Virus record (IMG/VR): IMGVR_UViG_3300014204_000107
Coordinates: 43,468 to 107,467 of that record
DNA: 64,000 nucleotides
DNA from: a virus
Lineage: Duplodnaviria > Heunggongvirae > Uroviricota > Caudoviricetes
Strand: one strand, 5' to 3'
The stretch's first letter is position 1. Each line of letters begins with the position of its first letter. Positions 33,589 to 55,397 of this stretch are shown piece after piece. The notes beneath the pieces were generated by a model that was not told the DNA's origin, searched no databases, and was given only the letters and a program-made list of their open reading frames with translations. Both the position numbers and the translations under genes were made by a program.

Positions 33589-33768
33589 AAGTTTCTAACA
33601 ATATGTATATCAATATTAAAATTAATTATAATATTGCGTTGATCAGCAAAACTTAATTAGACGTATTTTAACACGATCTGACAAGCTCAAAATAGAAGAT
33701 GATACCTAATACTTATTCAAATAGAACGTCGAGCATATCTAACCAAACAGTCCCAAAATCAAATTGAA

Positions 33769-38274: not shown

Positions 38275-39180
38275 ATGACAACAACAGAATTAAAAACTAT
38301 TTTATCTAATCATAAATTATGGTTAAATGGTAAAAAAAATGGAGTTTGTGCCGATTTAGGAGGTGTTGATTTAAGCGGTGCTAATTTAAGCAATGCTAAT
38401 TTAAGATATGCTAATTTACGCGGTGCTAATTTAAGCTATGCTAATTTAAGATGTGCTAATTTAAGCGGTGCTAATTTAAGCGGTGCTAATTTAAGCAATG
38501 CTAATTTACGCGGTGCTAATTTAAGCAATGCTAATTTAAGCAATGCTAATTTACGCGGTGCTGATTTAAGCGGTGCTGATTTAAGCGATGCTGATTTAAG
38601 CAATGCTGATTTAAGCAATGCTGATTTAAGCAATGCTGATTTAAGCAATGCTGATTTAAGCAATGCTGATTTAAGCAATGCTGATTTAAGCAATGCTAAT
38701 TTAAGCGGTGCTAATTTAAGCGGTGCTAATTTAGGCGGTGCTGATTTAAGCGGTGCTAATTTACGCGGTGCTAATTTACGCGGTGCTAATTTAAGATATA
38801 CTAATTTAAGCGGTGCTAATTTAAGCAATGCTAATTTACAAAATATTTTAATTAATGAATTATCAGCGTTCATACCATTATCGTGCCCCGAGGAAGGAAG
38901 TTTTATTGCATTTAAAACCGCGCAGAATCATATTATTAAATTATTAATACCAGAAGACGCAAAACGGAGTTCGGCAACATCATATAAATGTAGAGCATCA
39001 AAGGCAAAAGTACTTGAAATTAGTGATGAACTATCAAGCATACAATCTGATTATGATAACAACTTTGTCTATGCTGTTGGTGAAACAATTGAAGTAGATA
39101 ATTTTGATGAGTGTAGATGGAATGAATGCTCAACTGGAATACACTTTTTTATGTCTAAAGAACTTGCAAGGCAATATTAA
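38275..39180 (+). CDS. pentapeptide-repeat protein (about 35 A[ND]L[SR]xA repeats) with C-terminal globular domain
   Basis: Tandem pentapeptide repeats; N-terminal [13 protein letters not shown] shared with 15698. Confidence 0.65.
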
Positions 39181-41281: not shown

Positions 41282-41488
41282 ATGTACAATAACGTAAAAT
41301 TAGGGCTAACGGAAGTGCAAGCAGCAAATATCCTAAAGAATATGGGATATAAAATAGAAATATATAAATATCCTAATGCGGAAAACCATTATGTATTTAA
41401 AGACTCTAATGGTGAAGAGCATACAGTGCAAACACTATTCGATAAAGTATTCTATAATTTCCTGCTTAACAATATGAAAGCAGAATAG
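41282..41488 (+). CDS. small hypothetical protein
   Basis: ORF. Confidence 0.35.
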   Translation: MYNNVKLGLTEVQAANILKNMGYKIEIYKYPNAENHYVFKDSNGEEHTVQTLFDKVFYNFLLNNMKAE

Positions 41489-41509
41489 CAATCGAGCAGA
41501 CCTAACATT

Positions 41510-41758: not shown

Positions 41759-41809
41759 CTTATGATTGTCAAGCAGAAATTGCAACCAAGCAATCCTAAT
41801 AACTAATAT

Positions 41810-42103
41810 ATGCAATGGTTTGTTTATATAGTAGAATGCAATGATAATACCTTATATACAGGTATAACTAACAATATAGAGCTGCGCATACAAAAGCATA
41901 ATACAAAAAAAGGAGCAAAATATACGAAAGCAAGACTGCCAGTCAAACTAATATATAATCAAGAGTGTGCAAGCAAATCGGCAGCCCTAAAAGAAGAATA
42001 TAGAATCAAGCAACTAACAAAAAAGGAAAAGCTAGAATTAATAAGAAATTGCAACCAAACAACCCCAATATATGAACAAGGCAGTACAAATAACAATTAT
42101 TGA
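41810..42103 (+). CDS. GIY-YIG nuclease-domain protein (small stand-alone, YIVECNDNTLYTGITNN…R…H…KGAKYT)
   Basis: GIY…YIG core with conserved R, H, and KGAKYT. Confidence 0.55.
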   Translation: MQWFVYIVECNDNTLYTGITNNIELRIQKHNTKKGAKYTKARLPVKLIYNQECASKSAALKEEYRIKQLTKKEKLELIRNCNQTTPIYEQGSTNNNY

Positions 42104-42290
42104 AACAGAAGACTGGACATCCAGCACTCCAATAGGTAGGTATATTGTTATAGTAAAAGTAACACCAGAATTTATGCAGGAGCCAGAACATATTGTGAGC
42201 CACAGTGAAAAGGCAGAATATATAGCGCAAGAAATTAAAGAAGAATTCTTAAAGAAATTGCAACCGAGCAAGCCAACTACCACATATTAA
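42072..42290 (+). CDS. small hypothetical protein
   Basis: ORF. Confidence 0.35.
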   Translation: MNKAVQITIIETEDWTSSTPIGRYIVIVKVTPEFMQEPEHIVSHSEKAEYIAQEIKEEFLKKLQPSKPTTTY

Positions 42291-43005
42291 TAAAAACCTA
42301 GAAATTGCAACCAAACTATATAATTTGGAAATTGCAACCAATTACCTAATATACAATAAGGTAATAATATTATAGCAAATAACTAAATACCAAGAAATTG
42401 CAACCAACAAGAATTTGCAACCAACCAACTAATCCATACCGTATAAATGACAGTAGGTAAATAGTACAAATAGCCTGCTCCAGAAATTGCAACCAACGTA
42501 AAAATCAATAGGTTGGGGAGACGGAGGACGGTGTCTGGCTTGACTGTGCATCTTTATTCAAGCGTCTACCTAATAAGACCACGACCGACCTAACCATTTA
42601 AATTGCATAACCAGTTTTAGCTGTTACGCATATAGCGGTAACCACATAGCAATAATGTCGCGGATGCATATTATTCTTCCAGCCTAATTGCAGTAGGTAG
42701 CTCGTGTTTCTTCCATATGTTATATTATACGCTATATCTATTACACTAAATAGAACGTAATAGTTTGCGTTATTGCTATAGGTGTCCTGCACCCATCCCG
42801 GAATAGATTATTCCTCGGTGTCTGCACATTGCGTTAAGTTGCTTTAATTGTGTTAGAAAACTGCGTCTTTCATACTGTTGTTCTATTGTATAAGGTAAAG
42901 GTAGGAAGAATAGTTGAGATACACAAATTTAATTTTATGCTTCGTTAGTGTTGCTTGGTGTAGGTTTATATAGTGCTATAGAAGCATAGCAGATAGATTT
43001 GGTAG

Positions 43006-43045
43006 AGTGGTATATTATTCCTATATTTGTATATAACAAAATTAA
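43006..43045 (+). promoter_or_regulatory. variant of the recurring TTTGGTAG…TTT…TATAACAA promoter/leader motif
   Basis: Motif similarity; precedes ATG 43054. Confidence 0.35.
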
Positions 43046-43053
43046 CCAAACAA

Positions 43054-43293
43054 ATGAAAGTAAAAGTTGAAGAAACGGGTAAACCCGTATTGATCCCAAT
43101 GTGTGATATGGAACCTGGGCAAATGGCAGTTGTTGTTGACGATATGGCCGGCGACAATAACAGAGACTCTATTATACTGCGCACAGAGAAAGCAATAGCT
43201 GACTTTATGGACCCTTTGCTCGATTGGGAAATAGACTGTGAATTCAAAGTGAGAATCCTTCCCAAAGGCACCAAGATTGAAATTACTGCATAA
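43054..43293 (+). CDS. small protein, tandem paralogue family member 1 (MKVKVEETGKPVLIPM…ILRTEKAIADF…LPKGTKIEITA)
   Basis: Four tandem paralogues. Confidence 0.4.
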   Translation: MKVKVEETGKPVLIPMCDMEPGQMAVVVDDMAGDNNRDSIILRTEKAIADFMDPLLDWEIDCEFKVRILPKGTKIEITA

Positions 43294-43310
43294 CAAATTA
43301 ACCCAAACAA

Positions 43311-43550
43311 ATGAAAGTAAAAATTAAAGGAGAGGCTAAACCCGCATTGATCCCAATGTATGAAATGGTGCGTGGCCAGATCGCTAGAATTGTTGATACG
43401 TGCGCCGATAGTTATAACGGTTCTATCGTATTACGCAGTGAGAAAACTATTGTCGATTTAAAATCTCATCACGTAGATTGGTGCATGACATGCACTTATA
43501 AAGTAGAACTGTTGCCAGCCGGCACGGTCATTGAATTAACCGTTGAATAA
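43311..43550 (+). CDS. tandem paralogue 2
   Basis: Shared MKVKIKGEAKPALIPM…VLRSEKTIVDL…LLPAGTVIELTV. Confidence 0.4.
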   Translation: MKVKIKGEAKPALIPMYEMVRGQIARIVDTCADSYNGSIVLRSEKTIVDLKSHHVDWCMTCTYKVELLPAGTVIELTVE

Positions 43551-43558
43551 AAAAAAAT

Positions 43559-43798
43559 ATGAAAGCAAAAATAGTAAAAGAGGCTGCGCCTGCAGTCATG
43601 AAGATGAATGAACTTAAACCAGGACAGGTCGCTAAGATCAATGACCCTGATATTGGCCCCCACCATATGGGCAAAGTTATACTACGGACACAGCATTCAT
43701 TGGTTGATTTAGATGATCCAATTATAGATTTCTGCTTAGGAGCCGGTTGGGATGTAGAATTGCTCCCCGCTGGGACGGTTATCAAAATTACAGTCTAA
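43559..43798 (+). CDS. tandem paralogue 3
   Basis: Shared motifs. Confidence 0.4.
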   Translation: MKAKIVKEAAPAVMKMNELKPGQVAKINDPDIGPHHMGKVILRTQHSLVDLDDPIIDFCLGAGWDVELLPAGTVIKITV

Positions 43799-43866
43799 CT
43801 GATAAACGCAAGAAAAATGAATACAATCAAAGTTAAAAGACCCAAGGAACTTGTGCGGGACAAAAA

Positions 43867-44064
43867 ATGAAAATTGGCAAATTTGGCCAGATTAAAGAGG
43901 GATTTTATAAAGACCATATTGTATTGCGTGCTGATAGCAGCATATGGATTGATTTGACAGACCCGGAATACAATTGGACTAATGGCATTACATATCCTGT
44001 TGACGCACGGATATTGCTGGTTGGCACCACACTTGAGTTGGTTATTGGTAATAGTGCCATCTAA
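43867..44064 (+). CDS. tandem paralogue 4 (divergent, shorter)
   Basis: HIVLRADSSIWIDL…LLVGTTLELVIG resembles the family C-terminus. Confidence 0.35.
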   Translation: MKIGKFGQIKEGFYKDHIVLRADSSIWIDLTDPEYNWTNGITYPVDARILLVGTTLELVIGNSAI

Positions 44065-45034
44065 GCATTAGTGCTAATTCGATTTTTTATTTTTGGAAGA
44101 CTATATATTATAGAATAGGGTATCTGTGGTATTATACCAGCGCACCTTAATGCTAAGCTATCGTTAAGGGTTAATGCGGGTACATAAAGAGGCTAGCGAA
44201 TGCCATTACGCTATATTAATGTTGCCGTAACAGCGGGTGCGTTAGTCCTGCTCGGGCCGTTGGTAGACAGGCGAAACGTTTTTTGTAGTGTGGCGGCTAT
44301 AAATCGTATGGGGCCAGACTTAGATACGCTGGTTGCAGATCTAAGCATATACCACATTTAATGGGTGGCTTTATTATTTGGTAAGCAGGGTTGCCAGCCT
44401 TGTATGTTGCATATAATCATTGAAATATGCTAGTGTAACTCATGCAAGCAATGAGGTTTAGGTATAGCATGGCTACCAACTGTGTATGTTGCGCGTATAA
44501 CATTTATAAAACGTGATAGTTTGCATGTTTGCTCGATAAAACATTGCATATACATTGCGCTAGCTGCATGAATTTTGAATCATCGGCTAGATATTTCTGT
44601 CTTTGGTCGTTGCATAATATGCTATAAAATACTATACACAATAGATTTATAGTTTAGAAGGGGTATTGGATATATTTTCGGCAAAATTTCTTAAAAAATA
44701 TGATAATAAAAACTCAGGGCGCGCGGATATTTTTACTCATATAAGATAGTTCCTATGCTCGATTTGAATAGTATTTAGTGTGCGCATATAGCCGATATGG
44801 GAAAATAATCAAATAATTTCATTTCGCGGGATTTTTAATACTGTTGGTATATGTGCTTCGGTATTTGCTGGATTGCTACAGATATTTAGAAAAGTTTGAT
44901 AAAAAAATGCCATGGTCGATAAAAATTAATTCGAGCGTTCTTATTGCGTTATATAATAGAATCGAAGTTATGGTTGGCGCGTGGCTGTATGCGTACGCAT
45001 GTGCGTGTACATATAATATAGGTGCACCAAAAAT

Positions 45035-45085
45035 AATTTGGTATTCTGGTATAATTTACTTACCTTTATTCTATAACAATAAAAG
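45035..45085 (+). promoter_or_regulatory. recurring promoter/leader motif (TTTGGTAT…CTTACCTTTATTCTATAACAATAAA)
   Basis: Motif; precedes ATG 45095. Confidence 0.45.
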
Positions 45086-45094
45086 ACAATTTAA

Positions 45095-45341
45095 TATGAA
45101 AACAAATTTTAGACCTATTTACGAAATTGCTCGCGAGATAAGGAGTGATTGGAAAAACGTATATTATGGCGCCGTGCCATATTTGGATGCTATGCGTTCC
45201 ATAACAAACATAACCGATGCTTATTATGCTGACTCAGCAAAAAGCGTTGTGTTGTATTTCCTTGCCAATGCCAATACCTGGAAAGGTGAGGTTGCTCGCA
45301 GAATTAAGAAAGAATTAAATGATATGTGCAAATACAGGTAA
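45095..45341 (+). CDS. small hypothetical protein
   Basis: Start chosen downstream of promoter motif (ORF-track ORF begins 44844). Confidence 0.35.
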
Positions 45342-45412
45342 TTAGATCTGCTCGACGTTCTTTTTATAACTATATTGGTATATAAACAAGTATGAACGTC
45401 GAGCAGATCTAA
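45342..45412 (+). repeat. 19-bp perfect inverted repeat (TTAGATCTGCTCGACGTTC / GAACGTCGAGCAGATCTAA) with 33-nt loop; the right arm matches the 21-nt motif GAACGTCGAGCAGATCTAACC
   Basis: Read directly; starts one base after stop codon of 45095-45341. Confidence 0.6.
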
Positions 45413-45447
45413 CCTTATCAAGCTAAATTTTTAAAATAATAAATATC

Positions 45448-45630
45448 ATGACAAAGAAAGAATTTAATGCATTAGCATTTGCTAACGGTTACGAACCCCG
45501 CTACAACGGAAAAGAAGGTACTATGTACTTAACTGCTAAGCCGGCAAGAAGGGTTACTGTGAATGCAAACTTTAAGAAGGAAGTAAAGGCACTTGACCTG
45601 GCTTTTACAGTAAAGTTTGAAACTGAATAG
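45448..45630 (+). CDS. small hypothetical protein
   Basis: ORF. Confidence 0.4.
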   Translation: MTKKEFNALAFANGYEPRYNGKEGTMYLTAKPARRVTVNANFKKEVKALDLAFTVKFETE

Positions 45631-45653
45631 TGGCATTATTGGCATATAAAATA

Positions 45654-45703
45654 AATTAGGTAGGTTGAGAATTTCTTCCTACCTTTATCTTGTAACAATA
45701 AAT
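45654..45703 (+). promoter_or_regulatory. recurring promoter/leader motif
   Basis: TTAGGTAGGTTGAGAATTTCTTCCTACCTTTATCTTGTAACAATAAA before ATG 45715. Confidence 0.45.
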
Positions 45704-45714
45704 AAATAAAAAAC

Positions 45715-46698
45715 ATGAAAACAAATTCAGTTAACGATTACGTTAGCTTTCTTCGCAAGAATGCTCCAACTTCCTTTTCGGAACGTGCGCTCAATAAGTA
45801 TGTATATGGAATTGAAATTGCAGATGGCGGCACGTACAAGAAATATAAAGAATTGTTAAGACGTGCAGTAAGTAAGGGATTGGTTGAAGTTATTCATGTT
45901 ACCGGAAAACGCCACAGGCTCGAATATAAATTTTCGACACAACCTTTGATCATGCCCAATTTTAGACACAGGGTGATGGAAATCCTTGGACTCAGGTATG
46001 GCGCGTATCTCAGTGTGTTTTCAGACCGGCGCAAGGGCAACAGGTTCCGTGTTAAGTTTTGGAATGAAGATGCTACTCCTGCACAAATGAACGAAATTGA
46101 GAAGTTAAGCAAGCATGTTAAGAAAGTCTATAGGTACAGTGGTTCGCTGTGTATCGTGCTTGATTGCAGAATGCGTGACTTAATTAATTACAATGATACA
46201 TATATTACGCGTCTGGAACTGAGGGCAATGGTAACATACATTCCTGGTAATTGTTCACCTCTCCCGGCAAAGAAAGCTGAACCTGTAGATAAATTTGACT
46301 TTTTGAAGAAAGCACATGCAGAAGGCAAAACCATTGAACTGTATTTTGGAGAAAAATGGCAAACCATTCTAAACCCATTATTTGATGATGACTTCTGCAA
46401 CTATCGCATTAAGTCAGATGATAAATTTGCTGACTTACAGAAAGCGTATGATGCCGGGGATAAAATTGAAGTTTTGCTCTTAGATGGTACTTGGTGTGAT
46501 ATTGTAGAACCAGGTTGGTCGCCAGAATACAAATATCGTGTTAAGACAGCACCAAAAAACATGCCTAAATCCGTTGCTAAAAGCAAAGAAAGCATCCTTG
46601 AAGAAATTGAACTGTTGGTAAAACAATTGCCAAAAGGCACTACTTGCAGACTGGTTCTCCCCGTTACTACAATTGCAACATATAATTATACATCATAA
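45715..46698 (+). CDS. hypothetical protein; C-terminus paralogous to 46907-47473
   Basis: Shared …EI(E/K)…VK(Q/R)LP(K/V)GTT… C-terminal block. Confidence 0.45.
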   Translation: MKTNSVNDYVSFLRKNAPTSFSERALNKYVYGIEIADGGTYKKYKELLRRAVSKGLVEVIHVTGKRHRLEYKFSTQPLIMPNFRHRVMEILGLRYGAYLSVFSDRRKGNRFRVKFWNEDATPAQMNEIEKLSKHVKKVYRYSGSLCIVLDCRMRDLINYNDTYITRLELRAMVTYIPGNCSPLPAKKAEPVDKFDFLKKAHAEGKTIELYFGEKWQTILNPLFDDDFCNYRIKSDDKFADLQKAYDAGDKIEVLLLDGTWCDIVEPGWSPEYKYRVKTAPKNMPKSVAKSKESILEEIELLVKQLPKGTTCRLVLPVTTIATYNYTS

Positions 46699-46906
46699 TA
46701 GCATTAGCCACTCTATAATATGCAAATAGAGCAAAGGTAAGTAAAATTTTCGATATTATGTTAATGGTGTTGAATTTTTACTTACCTTTATATTATGGCA
46801 TTGAAGGTTACAATAAAATGTAACCGTCCGTGGGGATAACGCGAAAATAATAACGCTGGAAAGTTCAATTCTTTCCCTTGCCACAAAGAACAAAATAAAA
46901 TAAAAT

Positions 46907-47473
46907 ATGAAATCAGATTTAACACGCGCCGTAGAGAAAATTCTTAAAGCTAATAACAGTCCTTACTTTAGCATTCGTTATACGAATACTCCATGCTGGA
47001 CTGGCAGACTTGGTGTTCATTACAGTATTGACCCCAATTGCAAGCCAATAATGCCACTTAATTTAATTGCTGCAAGGATTGCTGAATTATCCAGGGGCAT
47101 TCACCACGCAGTTCAATCGAATCCGTTTACTATATCAGTTTATGTTGGCGAAGATTCTGGCTATCATATCGTTGACGAAGTAGCAATTGATGCTGGCAAA
47201 CACTTCTTAATATTAGATACATTGCGAGCAGTAAGGGCTGCAGAAACAAGGAATGAACGCATTGTTACAGAAGGACTCGTAATTCCCAAAAAGAAAATAT
47301 CTGGCGTAAGTACTGAAAAAGATGTGGTGGTTGAGGTGCAGAGTGGATTAGAAAGCTTTGACAATGCTATTAATGAAATTAAAGCTATTGTAAAACGGCT
47401 TCCGGTAGGAACTACTGTTAATATGGTTATCCCATATACTCAGCGGTTGAAGATTAACATTGAATGTAAATAA
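46907..47473 (+). CDS. hypothetical protein
   Basis: ORF. Confidence 0.45.
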   Translation: MKSDLTRAVEKILKANNSPYFSIRYTNTPCWTGRLGVHYSIDPNCKPIMPLNLIAARIAELSRGIHHAVQSNPFTISVYVGEDSGYHIVDEVAIDAGKHFLILDTLRAVRAAETRNERIVTEGLVIPKKKISGVSTEKDVVVEVQSGLESFDNAINEIKAIVKRLPVGTTVNMVIPYTQRLKINIECK

Positions 47474-47521
47474 TAGAGCATCAAACAAAGACAGCTTGCT
47501 TAAATAGCACAAAGAAAAATA

Positions 47522-47575
47522 AATTTGGTAGATTGAGAAAATGTTCTTATATTTACTTACCGTTTAACACAAACA
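47522..47575 (+). promoter_or_regulatory. recurring promoter/leader motif (variant)
   Basis: TTTGGTAGATTGAGAAAATGTTCTTATATTTACTTACCGTTTAACAC before ATG 47601. Confidence 0.4.
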
Positions 47576-47600
47576 AATAATTAAACAAATCCCATAACAA

Positions 47601-48029
47601 ATGGAAAACACTGAAAGAGAAGCTGTAACCAGCACCGAAACTGTTGAAGCAACAGTTGAAACCAAAGTATCAACCCCGAAGGCACCTAAAGCCCCTAAGG
47701 CACCGAAAGCCATTGCTCCTGTTGCTGAAGTCATTGATACTCCTGCGGCAGTTGAAGCTGAAGCCCCGGCAAAGAAAAGGCGTGGAAAAACCCCAACCAA
47801 AGCACAGATCCATTCTGTTGCCGATGTCATTGCCTTTGTGAAAAACACTGCTGATGAAAAGGCCGTTGCCAAAAGGCTCAAGGAAGTCTTTTCCAGCAAG
47901 TTCACTGAACAGAAAGAACTGATCATTGAAGCGCTGCACCCGGAAATGAATTCTGCCACGCCTAAGAGGCAGGAATGGTACAAAGCCGTTGGGTCGAAGA
48001 TCCGCAATGCCCGCAAACCGAAGTTCTAG
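47601..48029 (+). CDS. Lys/Ala/Pro-rich basic protein (KAPKAPKAPKA repeats), histone H1-like / nucleoid-associated candidate
   Basis: Composition; GC-rich relative to surroundings. Confidence 0.45.
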   Translation: MENTEREAVTSTETVEATVETKVSTPKAPKAPKAPKAIAPVAEVIDTPAAVEAEAPAKKRRGKTPTKAQIHSVADVIAFVKNTADEKAVAKRLKEVFSSKFTEQKELIIEALHPEMNSATPKRQEWYKAVGSKIRNARKPKF

Positions 48030-48279
48030 GAACTGCCACCGTTAGGGTGGAATGAGTAAAGGCCGCCGGTTATGCAGTTTGCAGCCGGTGGCCCTTTTAA
48101 TAAAGCAGCTTATAAGATAATAGAACATTTGCTCTTCGCCAGAGAAGCAGCAAATCCCTGGGTGGATCGGGGTATAAGCACAATTAAAAATAATAAGATA
48201 ATGCTGTTACAGCAGGTTCATGTTTCTTCTTATTGTTATAGAGTGTGCCGGCTTCGCGCCGGCATTTCTCTGATATTTT

Positions 48280-48326
48280 ATTTGTTGGTTAGAGAAATTC
48301 TTCCTACCTTTATTCTATAACAATAC
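48280..48326 (+). promoter_or_regulatory. recurring promoter/leader motif
   Basis: TTGGTTAGAGAAATTCTTCCTACCTTTATTCTATAACAATA before ATG 48331. Confidence 0.45.
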
Positions 48327-48330
48327 GAAC

Positions 48331-50958
48331 ATGAACAATCCTATCACAAAGAAAGGTACCTTTAAGTACGCAATTTCTGACTTTTGGTTATCCGAAAGCA
48401 CAAAGCGTATTTTAGAAGACTATGAACCGAAGGAGCATGCCTTTTATGTACGGGGTATGATTAAGAAAGCGGTGGAAGACTTTATTCGTATTATCAATAA
48501 CGGTGATGGCTCCGTGAAGGTTACATATAGGACTGATGGCAGTGAAACGTCATACAGTTCGGCCAACGCTATTGAATGTAAGAGTGTATGCGTCCAGTCT
48601 GATATATTTGACTTAGATGTTACCGTAGGTCTTGCTTTACATGAGGCAATGCACATCCGTGATACTATCTTTGTCACTATCAACCCATTGTTCCAATCCT
48701 TTCTTTTAAAGCATGATTGTAGTGATTTAATTATTGCTCATTTAGTTGATGCATATATCGACTTCCTGCATGATGAAATGATGTATGACTATGCTTATAT
48801 TGCAAGGAAGCTGACTGGGCAGTCAATGTCATATTTTGACATTACCAATGCAGTTACTGCCGCAATTACCAAGCACACTAATAAAGTTACTTTAAATAGC
48901 ATGTTCCAGAGTAGTGGTTATGTAAGAATGCGTAACTGTTACGAAAGAATAAACAAGCTTTCCAATGGCAAAGAGCTGTTGCCAAAGATTCTTAAAATAA
49001 CTGGCGGCATACTTAATTGGATCGAGGATCGTAGGATTGACCATAAAGCTAGTGTTATTGCTCCCGGCTATGTTGGCTATTATGATGCATTATACGATAA
49101 GTATTTCTTTGCACCAAACATGCGTGATATTGTAAAAAATAACATTACAAACGTGCCAACCCTTAAGCATTACGAATTATACATCACAAACTTATGGGAA
49201 TCGCAGAAATATGTTAACGAAGTCCCAGCATTAGGTGATATTGTTAAAGCCATTGATCTTCCGAATATTGGCAGGCTTGAAGACACTATTGATTCATTAG
49301 CTCTCACCTTCGAAGTAATGGCAATCATTCTCGAAGAAATGCTTTCACGTAAGAAGAAAGAAGAACAGGAGCCTGCAGAAAAAGAAACGAAGAAAGATAA
49401 GCTTGGAGAAAGCAAAGATGGCAAACGTGAAGAGAACGACAGTAATGACAATACTGAAATCGATAACGAAAATAGCGAAGACGGCCCTTCTAAAGAAGAT
49501 GATGACGAAAGCGAACCAAGCAATAAAGACAACAAATTCGATACAGAGATTGAAGAAGCTGGCGATGACAATGTTACTGCTGACGAGTTTGACGAAAACA
49601 ACGAAGACGCCCCAGAAGATAACTACGAAGACGCCCCAGAAGATAACTACGAAGATAACTACGAAGGTAACGACGAAAGTCCCGACCATACAGAAAACGA
49701 TGGTAGTGAGGTAGAACATACTGATGATGATACTTCTGGCACTGAAACTGCTGAAGACGATATTACTGATGCAGTAGTTCCCGACAATGATACTGAAAAT
49801 AGCAATACTACTGAAGGAGACAACGGCGATGAATCAAATAGTGCCGGTTCCAATGGTGGTAATGATTTAGACAGTTTTCCTGCTGAAGACAACAATATCA
49901 TTGATGACGAAGCAGACAAAATGCTTGGAGAGCAAAAGAAATTTGCTGAAGGTGATATCGAGCGTTCTGACGTTAATGAAATGGAGGAGAAGATTATTAA
50001 TGCTACCGCTACTGGCGATGTGGATTTGAGAGTATCAAAGGATGGTGCCAACCGCAATGTTAGTTATGTTTGCAATAACTTTAACAAGCAGAACGTAGAG
50101 ATGCTCAGTAATATGTGCGAATGTGTTAGTATGTGGACAACAGAAGACTCACGCGAGCAGCAAAATATCCTGAAAGCGCTGAAATATGGTGAAAAACTTG
50201 CACAGTTGATTACTATTCGCAACGAAGACAGGGAACTGGTTAATCCTAACCAGGAAAGCGGTAAAGTATTCAAAAGGCACCTTTACAAAATTGCTGGACA
50301 TAATAGTAAGGTTTTCTATAGCGTTCTCAGTGAAAACTTTGAACCCGTAACTATGCACATTTCAATTGACGCAAGTGGTTCAATGGCCTCTGGGTCAAGC
50401 TTTAGCAATGCTATTTTTATGGCCGTTGCTTTAGCAGTAGTTGCTGACAAGACTAAGAATGTTGAAGTTGTTATTTCATTCCGCGGTGAATCTTCTGGTA
50501 AATACAGAAGCGCATTTACTTCGGGTGCTGAATACAGCACTAAAGGAAAGATTCCTTTTATGTTGATTGCATATGATAGCCGCGTTGATAAACTTTCTAA
50601 AATCAAGCAAGTATTTAGGTATATCCATGCTAACAGTTACACTCCTGAAGGACTTTGTTTTGCCGCCATTTTGGAAGAACTCATTGAATACAGCAAAGAT
50701 TCAAGGTCTTACTTTATCAACATTAGTGATGGTATGCCGTGTTTCTACGAATATGCTGGGCAGAAGGCGTTAGAACATACAAGGAAACAAGTCGATAAAA
50801 TGCGCAAGGCAGGCATCAATATTATGGCATTTTTTATTGGCAATGAATATGGGCTTTCTAATTTTAAATATATGTATGGTAAGGATGCTACCAATATAGA
50901 CGTTACAAATTTGAGAAGACTTGCTAATAACATTAACCAATTATTATTGAAAAAATAG
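48331..50958 (+). CDS. CobT-like protein: N-terminal domain, long acidic low-complexity linker (EDAPEDNYEDAPEDNYEDNYE), C-terminal vWA with MIDAS (ISIDASGSM)
   Basis: Architecture typical of cobaltochelatase CobT-like vWA partners of MoxR/CobS AAA+ ATPases. Confidence 0.5.
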   Translation: MNNPITKKGTFKYAISDFWLSESTKRILEDYEPKEHAFYVRGMIKKAVEDFIRIINNGDGSVKVTYRTDGSETSYSSANAIECKSVCVQSDIFDLDVTVGLALHEAMHIRDTIFVTINPLFQSFLLKHDCSDLIIAHLVDAYIDFLHDEMMYDYAYIARKLTGQSMSYFDITNAVTAAITKHTNKVTLNSMFQSSGYVRMRNCYERINKLSNGKELLPKILKITGGILNWIEDRRIDHKASVIAPGYVGYYDALYDKYFFAPNMRDIVKNNITNVPTLKHYELYITNLWESQKYVNEVPALGDIVKAIDLPNIGRLEDTIDSLALTFEVMAIILEEMLSRKKKEEQEPAEKETKKDKLGESKDGKREENDSNDNTEIDNENSEDGPSKEDDDESEPSNKDNKFDTEIEEAGDDNVTADEFDENNEDAPEDNYEDAPEDNYEDNYEGNDESPDHTENDGSEVEHTDDDTSGTETAEDDITDAVVPDNDTENSNTTEGDNGDESNSAGSNGGNDLDSFPAEDNNIIDDEADKMLGEQKKFAEGDIERSDVNEMEEKIINATATGDVDLRVSKDGANRNVSYVCNNFNKQNVEMLSNMCECVSMWTTEDSREQQNILKALKYGEKLAQLITIRNEDRELVNPNQESGKVFKRHLYKIAGHNSKVFYSVLSENFEPVTMHISIDASGSMASGSSFSNAIFMAVALAVVADKTKNVEVVISFRGESSGKYRSAFTSGAEYSTKGKIPFMLIAYDSRVDKLSKIKQVFRYIHANSYTPEGLCFAAILEELIEYSKDSRSYFINISDGMPCFYEYAGQKALEHTRKQVDKMRKAGINIMAFFIGNEYGLSNFKYMYGKDATNIDVTNLRRLANNINQLLLKK

Positions 50959-50965
50959 CAAATAT

Positions 50966-51012
50966 ATTTGGTGAGCTTATTATTTCTTCCTACCTTTATT
51001 TTGTAACAATTA
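50966..51012 (+). promoter_or_regulatory. recurring promoter/leader motif
   Basis: ATTTGGTGAGC…TTCTTCCTACCTTTATTTTGTAACAATTAAA before ATG 51024. Confidence 0.45.
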
Positions 51013-51023
51013 AATAAAACACC

Positions 51024-52514
51024 ATGTCAAAAGAATCAACATTAGTATTTCCTGTATCAACGGGTAATGCTGTATGGTTTATAAGCGACGACAGAAAAAC
51101 TATATTAGATGTCGTTGATCCCGGACAACAGAGAAAAGCAAAAGCCGCCGAGGCAGCTGGACAAGTTGGAATACTTGGGTGGCGCGGAAAAGTTGAAAGA
51201 GAAGTTAAAGTTAAATACATTGACAGAAGCGATCTTCGATTGTATTGGTGTGAAAATTTCACTGATTGGTTTTCGGCCATTTCATCTGATGCTGCATTAC
51301 TCTCTAATTTTAATAACAAATACAGCATTGCCAACTATTTAACTGACGGTGATGTTGATACGATGCTTAAGTTGGTTGACAACCATACAGCGGTAGTTGT
51401 ATCAGGGTTATCCGGCAATTCACAGCCGAAATCACAGAAAAAAGGTAGACCTGCTAAGAAAGCAAAGGTTTCAAATTCTGCCGGTACTGCTGCACAGATG
51501 AGAAATCAAGTGGCTGTAAGTGCTACAGTAAGTCCCGAAGATACAGCAACAGAAACTGAAGAGCTGGCGGAAGTAGCTCCTGCAGAACCGGCCAAGGCTA
51601 TCGACGTTGACTTAAGCTGTGAGAACATGGCTCAGCGACTTGCAAATTTTGCAATGGTAAAGCCCGAAGAGCTTATCATTAGCGATCTTAAATGGAAATT
51701 TTTAATCCGTTCGGTATTACGCGGAAAAAACATATTGGTAACTGGCCAGTCTGGCACAGGGAAGACCAAATCGATTAATTCAGTTGCAAAGCTGATGGTT
51801 GAAGATCACCCGTTATTCATTATTCCTTGCGGAAATACAACTGATGCAAAGAGTATTTTATTGGGCAATACCAAATACAGCCCCGAGAGAGGCACTTACC
51901 TTAGCGAATCTGAATTTGTGAAAGCAATCCAGACGCCCAATGCAATTGTATATCTTGACGAGTTTACGCGTTTACACCCGGATGGGCAGAATATATTAAT
52001 GACAGTGCTTGACCACACACAGAGGGAACTCGTATTGGACGAAGCTGAGGGATGTCCTACTATTAAAGTAGCACCTGGAGTGTGTTTCATGGCTACGGCA
52101 AATATTGGGAAACAGTATAGCGCTACAAGATCCATTGACCGTGCATTGTTAGACAGATTCAATGTTACTTTCGAAATGGAGCCATTAGAGATCATGCAGG
52201 AACTTGAACTTATCTTCATGGAATACGGCAAGCCCGCTATTAAGATGAGGAATGAAATTTGCAAGGTGCTTGACGTTATCGACTCCATTAGGAAAGACTA
52301 CAATAACGAAAATACTGAGCTTACAACCTTTATTAGCACAAGGCCAGTGCTTGAAATTGCTGGACTGTTGCTTGATGGGTTTAGCCCTCTTGAATGCATT
52401 GAAGTATGTATTTATCCGTTATACAGCGACGATGGTGGAACCGAAAGTGAACGTGCATTGGTAAAGAAGATAGTACAAAAAGCAGGCTTTGCTCCTGCTG
52501 ATCAAACGATATAA
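51024..52514 (+). CDS. CobS/MoxR-like AAA+ ATPase (Walker A GQSGTGKTKS, Walker B YLDEFTRLHPDGQNILMTVLD) with ~200-aa N-terminal extension
   Basis: AAA_5/MoxR-type motifs; adjacent to vWA partner. Confidence 0.55.
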   Translation: MSKESTLVFPVSTGNAVWFISDDRKTILDVVDPGQQRKAKAAEAAGQVGILGWRGKVEREVKVKYIDRSDLRLYWCENFTDWFSAISSDAALLSNFNNKYSIANYLTDGDVDTMLKLVDNHTAVVVSGLSGNSQPKSQKKGRPAKKAKVSNSAGTAAQMRNQVAVSATVSPEDTATETEELAEVAPAEPAKAIDVDLSCENMAQRLANFAMVKPEELIISDLKWKFLIRSVLRGKNILVTGQSGTGKTKSINSVAKLMVEDHPLFIIPCGNTTDAKSILLGNTKYSPERGTYLSESEFVKAIQTPNAIVYLDEFTRLHPDGQNILMTVLDHTQRELVLDEAEGCPTIKVAPGVCFMATANIGKQYSATRSIDRALLDRFNVTFEMEPLEIMQELELIFMEYGKPAIKMRNEICKVLDVIDSIRKDYNNENTELTTFISTRPVLEIAGLLLDGFSPLECIEVCIYPLYSDDGGTESERALVKKIVQKAGFAPADQTI

Positions 52515-52586
52515 TTAGTGTTTACTAATTGTTACGTGCAAGCGCTGGCTAGACTTTATTGTTTAGCCGGCGTAAGCATGACCAGA

Positions 52587-52622
52587 CATTTGGTAGGTAG
52601 AGAAATTATACTTACCTTTATT
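52587..52622 (+). promoter_or_regulatory. recurring promoter/leader motif
   Basis: TTTGGTAGGTAGAGAAATTATACTTACCTTTATTATATG. Confidence 0.4.
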
Positions 52623-52624
52623 AT

Positions 52625-52780
52625 ATGAAAAACACGAAGTTGACCATATCCAAAGAACAGGCATATATTGCCCACAAGACTGCTTCCCGCAGAGTTGAAA
52701 TGGAAGAAGGACTTCGTAGACCTACACATTCTGTGCATAAAAATATGAAAGCTTATTCACGCAAAATTAAACATAAATAA
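52625..52780 (+). CDS. small basic protein (51 aa, below ORF-track cut-off)
   Basis: ATG 3 nt after promoter/leader motif; Lys/Arg rich. Confidence 0.3.
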   Translation: MKNTKLTISKEQAYIAHKTASRRVEMEEGLRRPTHSVHKNMKAYSRKIKHK

Positions 52781-52921
52781 ATATTGATATGAAAGGAAAT
52801 ATTAATGCTAAAATAAAATGCCCCCTCTGCGGTAAAAAAATCCACGTAAATAATTACCAAATGCATGTTAAATCTGATAAATGTAAAAGTAGTAGAAACG
52901 AACTTAAAAAACTCTTATAAT

Positions 52922-53260
52922 ATGGCAGAATACAATTTCCGCGACCAGGCAGACATAGTTGCTCTCGCACAAGAATGTGCAGTATCATTATCGGCACAAC
53001 CGTTAATTGATTACTTTGAACGCACTACCGTCGAAAAAGAAAAAGAAGAACTGCGAACCATGGTGTTTGAAGACATAAATGAAATTCATGAAGTGGATGT
53101 CGAGCAAGCATACAAGGATAACAAATTTGTCAAAGAAGCAGTTGACGAGTTAGTTGACAACCTATATGATGGTGGCGGATTCAACAATGACAATATTGAC
53201 TATTGGATGGAATACAATGAAAGCGCAGTTGAGAATATTCTCAGCGAAGTTGAAGACTAA
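52922..53260 (+). CDS. acidic hypothetical protein
   Basis: ORF; internal Met start. Confidence 0.4.
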   Translation: MAEYNFRDQADIVALAQECAVSLSAQPLIDYFERTTVEKEKEELRTMVFEDINEIHEVDVEQAYKDNKFVKEAVDELVDNLYDGGGFNNDNIDYWMEYNESAVENILSEVED

Positions 53261-53375
53261 AATAAGCAAAGCCGGCAGGAAAAAAGGTTTATAGTACTTT
53301 GGTAGAAATCTGAAACCTTGCAATACCCATTAAGATCGACAGTAGCTACCAACAGCCGGCTATGCATTATAATAA

Positions 53376-53425
53376 ATTTGTTTGCCCGGTATAAATTACT
53401 TACCTTTATTCTATAACAATAAATA
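53376..53425 (+). promoter_or_regulatory. recurring promoter/leader motif
   Basis: TTTGTTTGCCCGGTATAAATTACTTACCTTTATTCTATAACAATAAA; followed by a 40-aa membrane mini-ORF (53432-53554). Confidence 0.4.
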
Positions 53426-53564
53426 AAAGAAATGTGTCCAACAATTTTAGGAATTACCATTGGAGTATTTGTATGCATTCTAGCAGTAGGTCTTGCTGTT
53501 TGGTTTACACGGAAATTGGAAGATGAATGTGACGATGATATAATGATTTTTTAACAATAAGAAC

Positions 53565-53819
53565 ATGATAAAAAGAGTATTAGCGTTTGACACGGAATCT
53601 ATGTCGGGCGACCCGTGTGAATTTATATTTGATTCTGAAAAAGGAATTGCCAAGCAAATAATGGATGACAGCATTGAAGATGGTGAACCAGTTACCTTTG
53701 AGGAAGCAGTTGCATGGTGGATTGAAAATCCTGCCCCAGAAGATGAAAACTTCATCTTCTTGACAGACGAACAGATGGAAGACGCGTATACCCTGTTAAA
53801 GAGCATCCTTGGCAAATAA
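53565..53819 (+). CDS. small acidic protein
   Basis: ORF. Confidence 0.4.
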   Translation: MIKRVLAFDTESMSGDPCEFIFDSEKGIAKQIMDDSIEDGEPVTFEEAVAWWIENPAPEDENFIFLTDEQMEDAYTLLKSILGK

Positions 53820-53843
53820 AGCAATAAAAATATTCTTTAAGGT

Positions 53844-53885
53844 ATTTGGTGGTTTGAGAAATTATTCCTAACTTTACCTTGTTGT
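53844..53885 (+). promoter_or_regulatory. recurring promoter motif (variant) with no ORF downstream; faces the 53.9-54.75 kb ORF-free island
   Basis: TTTGGTGGTTTGAGAAATTATTCCTAACTTTACCTTG. Confidence 0.4.
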
Positions 53886-53889
53886 TTTG

Positions 53890-54720
53890 GACGAAATACT
53901 GTCCAGAACCTATAATCCCGGAAAAGGCAATATTGCCGCAAAACTTAGATTGTTTATACACCATTTAAAAGGAGGACGCAATGGAACCACCCGGTTAGTT
54001 TAGCTTTATATATTATTATTTTATTTTGATCTTTGACATCTTGTGAATTAGTAGGTTACCATGTAGTGCTCATACTTGAATGCTTTACATACGTCCCTCG
54101 CCTCCCTGTTGTATCGTGGTTTGACCGCCATTGTTGGCCACTTTGGTTCCGATAACTGTATGAACTTCATAGACGCATACGCTTTCTGTTGTCCATAGTT
54201 CTTGGCACGCATGGAAATAACCTATTAGCTTGGATTGGCGCTGTTACTATTCCGAAATGGTAACGGGGCCTTAACAAGCACCAGTGCATAATATGCGCGT
54301 TCTCGTAAGTGCAGCCATTTATTTTCCGCCGGCCGCTCTACATTAGTAGCATGGGACCGAGCTCCGTGGCCGAATCGAGTTAAATAGCTACGCATATATG
54401 TATTGCCAGAGTGGCTGGTACCCCACTCACTCAGTTTGCTTGTAGGGAAGTAAAACCTGCAAGGTACCACATTCCGAGAAAAGGCAATACACACTGGTTT
54501 TCACGAGTGTTGATACATCTAACCCTGCCGGGGCCTAATAAAGTGGCCTTTGGTGGGGTTTTCTGTTTTAGATCGATTCTTATGACTATTTTATAGTAGA
54601 TGATGTCAGGTATGTGGTTTATATGAACGTCGAGCAGACCTCACCATTTTGATTCAAATCCAACTTTACAGATATTGGTTAGAACCAAATACTACAAACA
54701 GTATTGCAATCTAAGCAATA
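53890..54720 (+). ncRNA. ORF-free GC-elevated island directly downstream of a promoter motif; candidate large structured ncRNA
   Basis: No + strand ORF of 60 aa or more in 830 nt of an otherwise gene-dense genome; only short - strand junk ORFs; local GC clearly above flanks. Confidence 0.3.
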
Positions 54721-54725
54721 AAATA

Positions 54726-54772
54726 TATTTGGTAGTTTGATATAATTTACTTACCTTTACATATAAACAATA
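54726..54772 (+). promoter_or_regulatory. recurring promoter/leader motif
   Basis: TTTGGTAGTTTGATATAATTTACTTACCTTTACATATAAACAATAA before ATG 54779. Confidence 0.45.
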
Positions 54773-54778
54773 ACAGGC

Positions 54779-54955
54779 ATGATTTTAAAAATTGAATTTG
54801 GTGACGAAGACCTTGCTTCCTTAGCGGAAGAAAATGGACTGTCAATTGCCGACATGGTAACGGTTCTTGAGGAAATTGCAATGGATGCACTGTCTGATGA
54901 TTATGGCATTGCAGAAGCAGCAAGTGGTTATGCTGAACGAATTAAAGAAGAATAA
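54779..54955 (+). CDS. small acidic protein (58 aa, below ORF-track cut-off)
   Basis: ATG right after promoter/leader motif. Confidence 0.3.
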   Translation: MILKIEFGDEDLASLAEENGLSIADMVTVLEEIAMDALSDDYGIAEAASGYAERIKEE

Positions 54956-54956
54956 A

Positions 54957-55202
54957 ATGAACAAACCAACAACAGGAAACAGAAAAGCCAATGCGCTGAT
55001 CAATCAATTCATTGAAGAATCCGATTGCAAGCCAGAACTTAAAGATAATCTTTACGAGGCTTTGGTTGAGGCAGTGATCGAAGATTACAGTGACGAACCA
55101 AACAATATTAAGCTAATTGAAATGCAAGATATTTACGAAATAGTAGATTCCTGCATCCCAATGGAAGATTACGAACCGCAAGAAGACGAAGATGAAGAAT
55201 AA
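54957..55202 (+). CDS. small acidic protein
   Basis: ORF, internal Met start after upstream stop. Confidence 0.4.
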   Translation: MNKPTTGNRKANALINQFIEESDCKPELKDNLYEALVEAVIEDYSDEPNNIKLIEMQDIYEIVDSCIPMEDYEPQEDEDEE

Positions 55203-55392
55203 GACATACAAGGATTGGATTATATGGGGCAAAAAGGTTACAGATAAGTATATTGCTGGCAAGCAATTCATCCCCGATCCCAGTGAATACAAGGACATGG
55301 TAATTGATGCCGTTTTGGAGGAGTTGCCAAGTGTTGATAACCTTACCTATAGCGAGCTGTCAAAGGCTTATAACGAGCTAAACAGGCAATAA
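55192..55392 (+). CDS. small hypothetical protein
   Basis: ORF. Confidence 0.35.
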   Translation: MKNKTYKDWIIWGKKVTDKYIAGKQFIPDPSEYKDMVIDAVLEELPSVDNLTYSELSKAYNELNRQ

Positions 55393-55397
55393 AACTG

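What the first reader, a model, noticed from the sequence alone, without database searches (positions are those of the whole stretch)
45342..45412. Recurring 21-nt motif GAACGTCGAGCAGATCTAACC (3 copies plus an inverted copy forming a 19-bp perfect hairpin)
Copies sit at 33723-33744 (AGAACGTCGAGCATATCTAACC), 45394-45414 and 54625-54645 (GAACGTCGAGCAGACCTCACC), each preceded by TAT(A)T. At 45342-45360 the exact reverse complement occurs, giving a 19-bp perfect stem with a 33-nt loop immediately after a stop codon. The motif is GC-rich relative to the genome and contains a BglII-like AGATCT palindrome. Possible roles: binding site of a phage regulator, a recombination/packaging signal, or a homing-endonuclease target (GIY-YIG and EndoVII genes are nearby).
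Basis: seen in the sequence. Interest (0 to 1): 0.55.

Follow-up and report, generated by a model that had tools for sequence, protein, structure and literature searches.

The report
Dispersed 21-bp intergenic box in phage
A 21-base sequence recurs only between genes in an orphan giant phage, once as an inverted pair that makes a strong hairpin; it is most likely a binding site for a phage gene-control protein, real but of an ordinary kind and with its function unproven.

Summary
GAACGTCGAGCAGATCTAACC occurs at 33724 (1 mismatch), 45394 (exact) and 54625 (2 mismatches). An inverted copy at 45340-45360 gives a perfect 19-bp stem with a 33-nt loop (-36.5 kcal/mol, z -8.2), starting right after a stop codon. 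None are expected by chance.

I found two more partial, co-oriented copies: 41487-41507, and about 470 nt beyond the window's right end. All copies lie in the ~15% non-coding DNA.

Copies 1 and 3 also share a second box, ATAGWAGATGAT, exactly 32 nt upstream across an unconserved spacer. Solo copies have no RNA structure.

The window belongs to a 299-kb AT-rich phage with Bacteroidota-type promoters. The flanking proteins tested have no phage relatives, and the motif is absent from IMG/VR and from 185,579 bacterial and archaeal genomes.

Best reading (about 0.4): a sequence-specific DNA recognition site, operator- or promoter-like, for a phage-specific factor at transcription-unit borders. The hairpin would then be a divergent pair of sites, and its transcript would also fold stably.

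Homing-endonuclease target, packaging signal, CRISPR repeat and classical terminator are not supported. Function is unproven because no diverged relatives or expression data exist.

The parts
33692..33703 (+). Box 1 of copy 1 (ATAGAAGATGAT), 32 nt upstream of box 2
   Evidence: Pattern ATAG.AGATGAT occurs only twice in the window, both times exactly 32 nt before a motif copy. Sharing at the same offset has p ~0.002 by resampling.
33724..33744 (+). Box 2 copy 1 (GAACGTCGAGCATATCTAACC). It lies in the 180-nt divergent intergenic region, 25 nt before the ATG of the first gene (33769) of a tightly packed run of small + strand genes extending to about 42.3 kb.
41487..41507 (+). Partial box 2 copy 5 (AGCAATCGAGCAGACCTAACA; core 41491-41506). 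It fills the 21-nt spacer between the stop at 41486-88 and the ATG at 41510.
   Evidence: PWM 24.5 bits. My arithmetic puts the chance of a 14/15 core match at about 0.01.
45340..45360 (-). Inverted box 2 copy 4 (left hairpin arm, perfect over 45342-45360). It abuts the TAA stop of the 81-aa gene.
45361..45393 (.). 33-nt spacer/loop, 15% G+C (TTTTTATAACTATATTGGTATATAAACAAGTAT), with a small internal hairpin
45394..45414 (+). Box 2 copy 2 (exact consensus; right hairpin arm), 33 nt before the ATG of the orphan 60-aa ORF 45448-45630
45337..45418 (+). Full extent of the predicted RNA hairpin (19 bp plus 5 bp after a 2-nt bulge)
   Evidence: MFE -36.5 kcal/mol, z -8.17, 0 of 200 shuffles as stable
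54593..54604 (+). Box 1 of copy 3 (ATAGTAGATGAT), 32 nt upstream of box 2
54625..54645 (+). Box 2 copy 3 (GAACGTCGAGCAGACCTCACC). It lies about 55 nt after the T-run (54559-54569) of the intrinsic terminator 54523-54569 and about 80 nt before host-type promoter 54728-54759.
46733..46789 (.). Parallel case, not a motif copy: an inverted copy of the host-type promoter -7 core forms a 17-bp hairpin with the promoter itself, just after the stop of the 327-aa gene.
   Evidence: (I6), (-30.0 kcal/mol, z -5.2)

Best explanation
Box 2 (invariant part GAACGTCGAGCA-A-CT-A; minimal core TCGAGCA) is a sequence-specific recognition site read on double-stranded DNA by a phage-specific protein. That protein could be a regulator or a promoter-specificity factor. 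The sites lie at borders of transcription units in the accessory-gene region of a 299-kb Bacteroidota-type phage. At two sites (33.7 and 54.6 kb) box 2 works together with a second box (ATAGWAGATGAT) three helical turns upstream, giving a bipartite promoter/operator-like unit. At 45.3 kb two box 2 sites diverge from a 33-bp AT-rich spacer, with centres 54 bp apart (about 5 turns), between the 81-aa and 60-aa genes. A by-product, possibly used by the phage, is that read-through RNA from the 81-aa gene folds into a stem of about 24 bp. That stem could protect or process the upstream mRNA's 3' end. Shown: existence, copy number, placement, the bipartite architecture, the lack of RNA structure in solo copies, and hairpin stability.
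For: (1) All five window copies, and the sixth just outside, lie in non-coding DNA, which is about 15% of the window. My arithmetic gives 0.147^5 ~ 7e-5. (2) Conservation stops sharply at the 21-nt block and the flanks are unrelated. This indicates selection on a discrete site, not a recent segmental duplication. (3) Copies 1 and 3 share box 1 at exactly -32, while the 20-nt spacer is at background identity (6/20). The box-1 pattern occurs nowhere else in the window (p~0.002, 85). Fixed spacing of about 3 helical turns is typical of bipartite protein sites and promoters. (4) Solo copies have no secondary structure (z 0.06 to 1.65; 199 of 200 shuffles fold at least as well as the copy 1 unit). 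The primary sequence is therefore what is conserved. (5) Placement fits unit borders. Copy 1 heads a gene run that has no host-type promoter on the + strand between 28.9 and 34.6 kb. Copy 3 follows an intrinsic terminator. Copy 2 precedes a gene that lacks the family promoter. (6) The same 'inverted copy plus direct copy' hairpin design is used once more in this phage with a bona fide promoter core, at 46733-46789. (7) The box is private to this phage. It is absent from IMG/VR and from 185,579 bacterial and archaeal genomes apart from 2 chance hits. It is also absent from two other AT-rich phage contigs that use the same host-type promoters. This fits a phage-encoded reader. (8) Dispersed, asymmetric operators of about 20 bp, single or paired, are established for phage P1 C1: 22 sites with a 17-bp asymmetric consensus (PMC8546580).
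Against: No candidate binding protein was identified. The 81-aa neighbour has a confident helical fold with no match in the PDB, and the 60-aa neighbour is an orphan. No host-type -33/-7 elements or sigma-70-like hexamers sit in a consistent register with box 2, so a promoter role rests on geometry alone. The 5 extra base pairs beyond the box in the hairpin hint at selection for the structure itself. The orientation bias (6 of 7 copies co-directional with genes) would equally fit an RNA-level element. The partial copy at 41487 ends 2 nt before a start codon inside an operon, an odd place for an operator or promoter. No diverged relatives exist to test conservation.
Confidence: 0.4

Rival explanations
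1. The element acts at the RNA level. The 45.3-kb hairpin would be a processing or stability structure (an RNase III-type substrate or 3'-end protector) for the 81-aa gene's mRNA. Alternatively its 5' arm would be released as an antisense RNA that pairs with the box 2 copies in the 5' leaders at 33.7, 41.5 and 54.6 kb. A third form is that box 2 is a single-stranded RNA site for a translational or stability regulator.
For: The stem is very stable: 19 bp perfect plus 5 more pairs (-36.5 kcal/mol, z -8.2). It starts at the stop codon, with no terminator between gene and hairpin. Six of seven copies are co-oriented with transcription. Three copies lie 2-33 nt before start codons. The left arm is 17-18/19 complementary to the other full copies.
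Against: Solo copies are unstructured. A 21-nt near-perfect match is far more than trans-acting bacterial antisense RNAs need. Box 1 at fixed spacing is not explained. Distances to start codons vary from 2 to 133 nt. There is no Rfam family beyond spurious miRNA-precursor shape matches far below threshold.
Confidence: 0.25
2. The copies are scars or substrates of DNA rearrangement. The 71-bp unit at 45342-45412 would be a miniature inverted-repeat element with 19-bp terminal repeats, and the solo copies would be single ends. Alternatively the boxes act like the composite regulatory cassettes (PeSLs) of T4-type phages, which mediate gene shuffling by recombination.
For: The unit has terminal-inverted-repeat geometry. 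The copies sit between small orphan genes in a hyperplastic-looking region. The phage does have terminator-plus-promoter composites before many genes, as described for PeSLs (PMC4122927, PMC2839356).
Against: There is no target-site duplication at the hairpin flanks (GGTAA| ... |CCTTA). Only one inverted pair exists. No transposase lies nearby. Box 1 conservation across an unconserved spacer argues for function, not for a shared insertion. Four independent assemblies of this phage show no rearrangement at any copy.
Confidence: 0.12
3. The inverted pair is a replication origin: initiator sites flanking an AT-rich unwinding element. The solo boxes would be auxiliary initiator sites.
For: Two inverted 19-21-bp sites bracket a 33-bp spacer of 15% G+C. 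This architecture is known from viral origins such as HSV oriS (my own knowledge, not tested here).
Against: Cumulative GC skew shows no inflection at 45.3 kb. A better origin-like feature, at least 7 iterons of GAAATTGCAACC(AA), lies at 41.8-42.5 kb. Solo copies with box 1 are not explained.
Confidence: 0.06
4. The motif is a target of a homing endonuclease (GIY-YIG or EndoVII/HNH), a terminase packaging signal, or a strand-specific nick site.
For: A GIY-YIG gene (41810-42103) lies 300 nt from the partial copy. An EndoVII-like gene is at 58502-59152. Nick-site consensus sequences of T5- and phiKMV-like phages are also short, dispersed and strand-specific (my own knowledge).
Against: The four full copies are 3-8 kb from any endonuclease gene. 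The sites are in the phage's own intergenic DNA, not in a conserved gene of an endonuclease-free relative. At least six copies is too many for a pac or cos site. An inverted copy 54 bp away would convert two nicks into a double-strand break.
Confidence: 0.05

Closest known systems
Dispersed asymmetric operators of the phage P1 C1 repressor (22 sites, 17-bp consensus ATTGCTCTAATAAATTT; PMC8546580)
   Same: A short, non-palindromic consensus occurs at many sites scattered across a large phage genome. The sites are intergenic, at the heads of separate transcription units, and occur singly or in paired arrangement.
   Different: There is no sequence similarity. No repressor gene was identified here, and binding was not shown. 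Overlap with a promoter was not demonstrated. This phage shows no sign of being temperate in the 84 kb examined.
PeSL composite terminator/promoter cassettes of T4-type phages (PMC2839356, PMC4122927)
   Same: Repeated regulatory cassettes lie between small orphan genes of a hyperplastic region. A stem-loop sits immediately next to a promoter-type element. This phage has such composites for its host-type promoters.
   Different: In PeSLs the stem-loop is a separate short G/C-clamped hairpin upstream of a sigma-70 early promoter. Here the hairpin is built from the box and its own inverted copy, with a 33-nt loop, and box 2 is not a recognisable host promoter. A role in indels could not be tested.
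Promoters of single-subunit phage RNA polymerases (T7/T3/SP6 type, about 20-23 bp; my own knowledge)
   Same: The element is an asymmetric block of about 21 bp, nearly identical between copies, intergenic and mostly co-oriented with genes, and specific to one phage.
   Different: No such polymerase gene was seen in the 84 kb available. One copy points antisense into a gene. Box 1 at -32 has no counterpart. There is no AT-rich melting segment at the 3' end of the box.
Intrinsic (Rho-independent) terminators
   Same: A stable hairpin lies directly after a stop codon.
   Different: The loop is 33 nt, not 3-8. No U-tract follows (CCUUAUCAAGC...). The phage's clear terminators look different (for example 54523-54569 and 60705-60753).

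Membership tests
Intrinsic terminator | G+C-rich stem with a short loop (about 3-8 nt) | tested here: not met
   The loop is 33 nt. The terminator scan found none in 44000-46000.
Intrinsic terminator | U-tract immediately 3' of the stem | tested here: not met
   The 3' flank is CCTTATCAAGCTAAAT.
Bacteroidota sigma-A promoter (-33 TTTG / -7 TAnnTTTG; PMC9723704) | TTTG, then 17-21 nt, then TAnnTTT(G/A), in register with the element | tested here: not met
   The regular-expression scan finds 14-17 such promoters on the + strand, but none at or next to 33724, 41487, 45394 or 54625.
PeSL-type composite regulatory cassette | Stem-loop directly adjoining a promoter, repeated between accessory ORFs | tested here: inconclusive
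   The stem-loop is present at one of the copies only. The promoter nature of box 2 is unproven.
PeSL-type composite regulatory cassette | Insertion/deletion breakpoints between close relatives coincide with the cassettes | not testable with these tools
   Four assemblies of this phage are at least 99.8% identical, with no indel at any copy. No diverged relative was found.
Homing-endonuclease target site | The site lies close to the endonuclease gene's insertion point and within sequence shared with endonuclease-free relatives | tested here: not met
   Only the partial copy is within 300 nt of the GIY-YIG gene. The other copies are 3-8 kb from GIY-YIG or EndoVII genes.
CRISPR repeat / solitary repeat unit | Repeat of about 23-50 nt matching a CRISPR array of host or phage, or regular spacing | tested here: not met
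   Conservation is limited to 21 nt. There is no regular spacing. No array appears in 185,579 species genomes, where the only 2 hits are single chance hits in high-G+C bacteria.
Miniature inverted-repeat transposable element | Terminal inverted repeats plus a target-site duplication, in several full copies | tested here: not met
   Terminal repeats are present, but there is no direct duplication at the flanks and only one inverted pair in 84 kb.
Dispersed asymmetric operator set (P1 C1 type) | Non-palindromic consensus at multiple dispersed intergenic sites | tested here: met
Dispersed asymmetric operator set (P1 C1 type) | Cognate DNA-binding protein, and overlap with promoters it controls | not testable with these tools
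   No binding protein was identified. The 81-aa neighbour gives no fold match. There are no transcription start data.
Single-subunit RNA polymerase promoter | Phage encodes a T7-like RNA polymerase | tested here: inconclusive
   None appeared among the proteins scanned in the window or in the Pfam labels of the flanking loci. About 215 kb of the genome could not be read.
Any Rfam RNA family | Covariance-model match at or above the gathering score | tested here: not met
   Only a tRNA at 33035 reaches threshold. At the hairpin there are only miRNA-precursor shape matches at 22-32 bits, against thresholds of 76-117.

The most novel reading that the evidence does not exclude
Box 1-N20-box 2 is the promoter class of a phage-specific transcription apparatus (a phage sigma-like factor or non-host RNA polymerase) in a Bacteroidota giant phage. 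Alternatively, the 45.3-kb hairpin yields a phage antisense RNA that controls the mRNAs carrying the dispersed box 2 copies in trans. Either would be a regulatory system with no described counterpart in phages of this host phylum.
Probability: 0.12. Interest if true: 0.6.

Novelty: new member of a known kind. Interest (0 to 1): 0.3.

Why it matters
Regulatory signals of phages that infect Bacteroidota, giant ones especially, are almost uncharted. This window shows a legible regulatory vocabulary. It has host-type promoters with conserved leaders, terminator-promoter composites, and a second phage-private bipartite box. If box 2 marks a phage-specific regulon, it would give a handle for sorting this orphan genome's many unknown small genes into temporal classes. 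It would also serve as bait for finding the regulator. If it is only a decaying repeat, little is lost.

Tried and rejected
(1) Relatives.
- Megablast and blastn of the hairpin region and of both ORF-poor regions against INPHARED found no match.
- The motif scan of IMG/VR gave 0 hits.
- Protein-guided locus searches with the 327-aa and 875-aa neighbours found none in IMG/VR.
- The 327-aa protein has no homologue among 5.8 billion proteins except itself.
- The SPFH protein only finds bacterial YqiK-like proteins.

(2) My metagenome motif scan used too loose a pattern (16 fixed bases). The one 21/21 match (L037) lies inside a bacterial membrane-protein gene.

(3) Homologues of the 81-aa upstream gene in other phages (L001-L008, L011) have no hairpin of this kind and no box 2.

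(4) Strain variants (ENA 299-kb contig, JGI, two Logan assemblies) are identical at all copies, so they give no information on constraint.

(5) Sigma-70, ECF (GAAC/CGTC) and sigma-54 readings of the box were tried by eye and by scan. No consistent register emerged.

(6) An invertible-promoter reading is rejected. A 33-bp segment between the repeats is too short for recombinase synapsis (established knowledge of minimal inversion substrates).

(7) Pairing between box 1 and box 2 is not conserved between copies 1 and 3.

(8) Trans complementarity to the ORF-poor regions gave only weak, non-significant matches at 44226 and 55731.

(9) A structure prediction of the 81-aa protein, made to look for a DNA-binding fold, gave a confident model but no PDB match.

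(10) A literature search for the motif string found only unrelated probe and oligonucleotide sequences.

Full report

Yes. A 3-mismatch search finds the 21-mer at 33724-33744 (+, 1 mismatch), 45394-45414 (+, exact), 54625-54645 (+, 2 mismatches) and 45340-45360 (-, 2 mismatches). None occur in 100 shuffles.

- The inverted copy is perfect over 19 nt (45342-45360 against 45394-45412), with 33 nt between the arms. It is the longest perfect local inverted repeat in the 64 kb.
- As RNA it folds at -36.5 kcal/mol (z = -8.2), and pairing goes on for five more pairs after a 2-nt bulge.
- The left arm begins one base after the TAA stop of an 81-aa gene, 45096-45341.

- The upstream TAT(A)T is not shared by copy 1.
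- The AGATCT palindrome exists only in the two hairpin arms.
- There are more copies than reported. A position-weight scan gives a fifth, partial copy at 41487-41507 (24.5 bits; the next best site in the window scores 12.6). A weak sixth lies about 470 nt beyond the right end of the window, in the same genome.

**2. What genome is this?**

- The window has 31-40% G+C, and nearly all genes are on the + strand.
- It is an accessory-gene region of a very large phage. It carries NAMPT, a PRPP-synthetase-like gene, ADP-ribosylglycohydrolase, Ro60/TROVE, radical SAM, SPFH, pentapeptide-repeat, GIY-YIG and EndoVII genes among dozens of orphan ORFs.
- The same phage was assembled four times: an ENA contig of 299,185 bp, a JGI contig and two Logan contigs. 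These are at least 99.8% identical to the window.
- A family of about 14 near-identical promoters, TTTGG-N19-CTTACCTTTA plus a conserved leader, occupies 43-63 kb. It matches the Bacteroidota sigma-A pattern of -33 TTTG and -7 TAnnTTTG (PMC9723704). Two other AT-rich phage contigs use the same type at 11-14 copies per 10 kb. The host is therefore probably a member of the Bacteroidota. This is an inference.
- Several of these promoters are preceded by strong terminator hairpins. That resembles the composite terminator/promoter cassettes of T4-type phages (PMC4122927).

**3. Anatomy of the element**

*Placement.* All five window copies lie in the roughly 15% of the window that a crude gene call leaves non-coding. 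So does the sixth copy.

*Extent.* Alignment of the copies with 60-nt flanks shows that conservation ends at the 21-nt block.

- Positions 1-12 (GAACGTCGAGCA) are invariant in the four full copies. Positions 13, 15, 18, 20 and 21 vary.
- The two partial copies keep only ATCGAGCAG and part of the 3' half.

*Second box.* Copies 1 and 3 share ATAGWAGATGAT, starting exactly 32 nt before box 2. The pattern occurs nowhere else in the window, and the 20-nt spacer is at background identity. Resampling gives p of about 0.002. This argues for two functional boxes at fixed spacing, not a recent 53-nt duplication.

*Left-arm remnant.* Copy 1 also has GATCTG at the same offset (-49) as the left hairpin arm of copy 2. 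This may be a remnant of an inverted arm.

*RNA structure.* Solo copies, with or without box 1, have no RNA secondary structure (z between 0.06 and 1.65).

*Context of each copy:*

| Copy | Position | Context |
|---|---|---|
| 1 | 33724 | In a divergent intergenic region, 25 nt before the first gene of a densely packed gene run (33.8-42.3 kb); no host-type promoter lies upstream of the run on the + strand |
| 2 | 45394 | 33 nt before an orphan 60-aa ORF that also lacks the family promoter |
| 3 | 54625 | About 55 nt after the T-run of an intrinsic terminator and about 80 nt before a family promoter |
| 5 | 41487 | Fills a 21-nt gap between two genes |

**4. Parallel case in the same phage**

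At 46733-46789 an inverted copy of the host-type promoter's -7 core forms a 17-bp hairpin with the promoter itself, just after the stop of the preceding gene. This is the same design as at 45.3 kb, but built from an element whose promoter nature is clear. It gives modest support for reading box 2 as a promoter-class or operator-class element. It also suggests that this phage builds junction hairpins out of the downstream regulatory box.

**5. What it is not**

- It matches no Rfam family.
- It is not a host repeat or CRISPR repeat. A strict scan of one genome from each of 185,579 species returned two single chance hits in high-G+C bacteria, and IMG/VR returned none.
- It is not a classical terminator, given the 33-nt loop and the lack of a U-tract.
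- It is not a host-type promoter.
- It is not a convincing homing-endonuclease target. Only the partial copy is near the GIY-YIG gene.
- It is not a convincing mobile element, with no target duplication and only one inverted pair.
- An invertible promoter is physically implausible with 33 bp between the repeats.

**6. Mechanism**

The best-supported reading is a sequence-specific DNA recognition site for a phage-specific factor at borders of transcription units.

- The site is bipartite with box 1 at two loci, and a divergent pair at 45.3 kb.
- The closest analogue by logic is the set of dispersed asymmetric operators of the phage P1 C1 repressor (PMC8546580).
- A phage-specific promoter class is a variant of the same reading.
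- Any transcript that crosses 45.34-45.42 kb will fold into a very stable stem. An RNA-level role there (3'-end protection, RNase III-type processing or an antisense arm) is the main rival and may coexist with the DNA-level role.
- I put about 0.4 on the DNA-site reading, 0.25 on a primarily RNA-level role, 0.12 on a recombination or mobile-element origin, and small weights on an origin, nick site, endonuclease target or packaging signal.

**7. Limits**

No diverged relative could be found, so there is no comparative test of constraint or co-variation. There are no expression data, and about 215 kb of the genome could not be read with the tools allowed. My one metagenome scan was wasted on too loose a pattern.

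**8. Verdict**

This is a real, non-random, phage-private cis-element with clear architecture but unproven function. It is a new member of a familiar kind, the intergenic regulatory repeats of large phages. Interest is moderate to low unless experiments show a new transcription specificity or a phage antisense regulator.

Noticed in passing
window 42998-62922 (+ strand), also 8500-8531 and 42896-42927 (- strand): A family of about 15 near-identical promoters, TTTGGTAG..GAGAAATT.T.CTTACCTTTAT.CTATAACAATAAA, of Bacteroidota -33/-7 type with a conserved leader. Several are preceded by strong terminator hairpins (before 48281, 52589 and 60757), like the PeSL cassettes of T4-type phages. The same promoter type is dense in two unrelated AT-rich phage contigs (L005, L007).
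   Followed up: partly
window 46733-46789: An inverted copy of the promoter -7 core pairs with the promoter itself (17 bp, 1 mismatch, -30 kcal/mol, z -5.2), right after the stop of the 327-aa gene. This is the same design as the finding's hairpin.
   Followed up: partly
window 41776-42497: An iteron-like array with at least 7 copies of GAAATTGCAACC(AA), around and after the GIY-YIG gene. It is followed by an ORF-free, G+C-richer stretch (42500-42890) and a divergent promoter pair at 42.9 kb. It could be an origin or a regulatory hub.
   Followed up: no
window 53845-54575: A family promoter, then about 690 nt with no credible ORF and 45-48% G+C (the window average is about 35%), then a clear intrinsic terminator (54523-54569). 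The fold z-score is -2.7 and there is no Rfam match. This is a candidate long non-coding RNA. A similar ORF-poor stretch at 44065-45030 has no structural signal (z 0.24). Another G+C-rich non-coding block lies at L133 11000-11200.
   Followed up: partly
window 26150-26580, upstream of the Ro60/TROVE gene 26670-28118: Four repeats of GTGGCAAT..ATGAGTTACTTC.., three of them closed further on by CTCATTT. One encloses a GGTTCAACTCC T-arm-like hairpin. They look like Y-RNA-type partners of Ro60, including a tRNA-like module. Rfam finds nothing.
   Followed up: partly
window 33035-33108; 304-368; 395-463: A tRNA gene with an abnormal anticodon loop (ARAGORN 'tRNA-???'; Rfam tRNA 42.6 bits), plus two degenerate tRNA-like stretches near the left end (one at 20.8 bits, one seen by eye with GGTTCGAATCC).
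   Followed up: partly
window 38275-39180: The pentapeptide-repeat gene (15-nt period, about 30 units) differs in repeat number between the window (301 aa) and the ENA assembly of the same phage (276 aa). Apart from single differences at 43408, 43415 and 50025, it is the only variable spot across the about 21 kb of the window covered by the other assemblies.
   Followed up: partly
window 45096-45341: The 81-aa protein just upstream of the hairpin belongs to a very widespread phage family (1648 hits; phrog_13953, function unknown). Its predicted four-helix fold is confident (pLDDT 93.5) and has no significant match in the PDB.
   Followed up: yes
window 31055-32983: A 642-aa SPFH/flotillin (YqiK-like) gene whose nearest relatives are bacterial (53-57% identity). 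The named ones are mostly Betaproteobacteria, not Bacteroidota. It was probably acquired horizontally.
   Followed up: partly
whole window: GATC occurs 94 times, against about 205 expected from base composition, a roughly two-fold depletion. The two hairpin arms each contain one.
   Followed up: no
window 34054-34090: A 17-pair hairpin with a 3-nt loop overlaps the stop codon of ORF 33769-34065, the first gene after motif copy 1.
   Followed up: no
window 18183-18956, 57163-58095, 59149-60687; L133 20251-20378: A cluster of NAD-related functions: ADP-ribosylglycohydrolase, a PRPP-synthetase-like gene, NAMPT, and a PARP-domain gene just outside the window.
   Followed up: no
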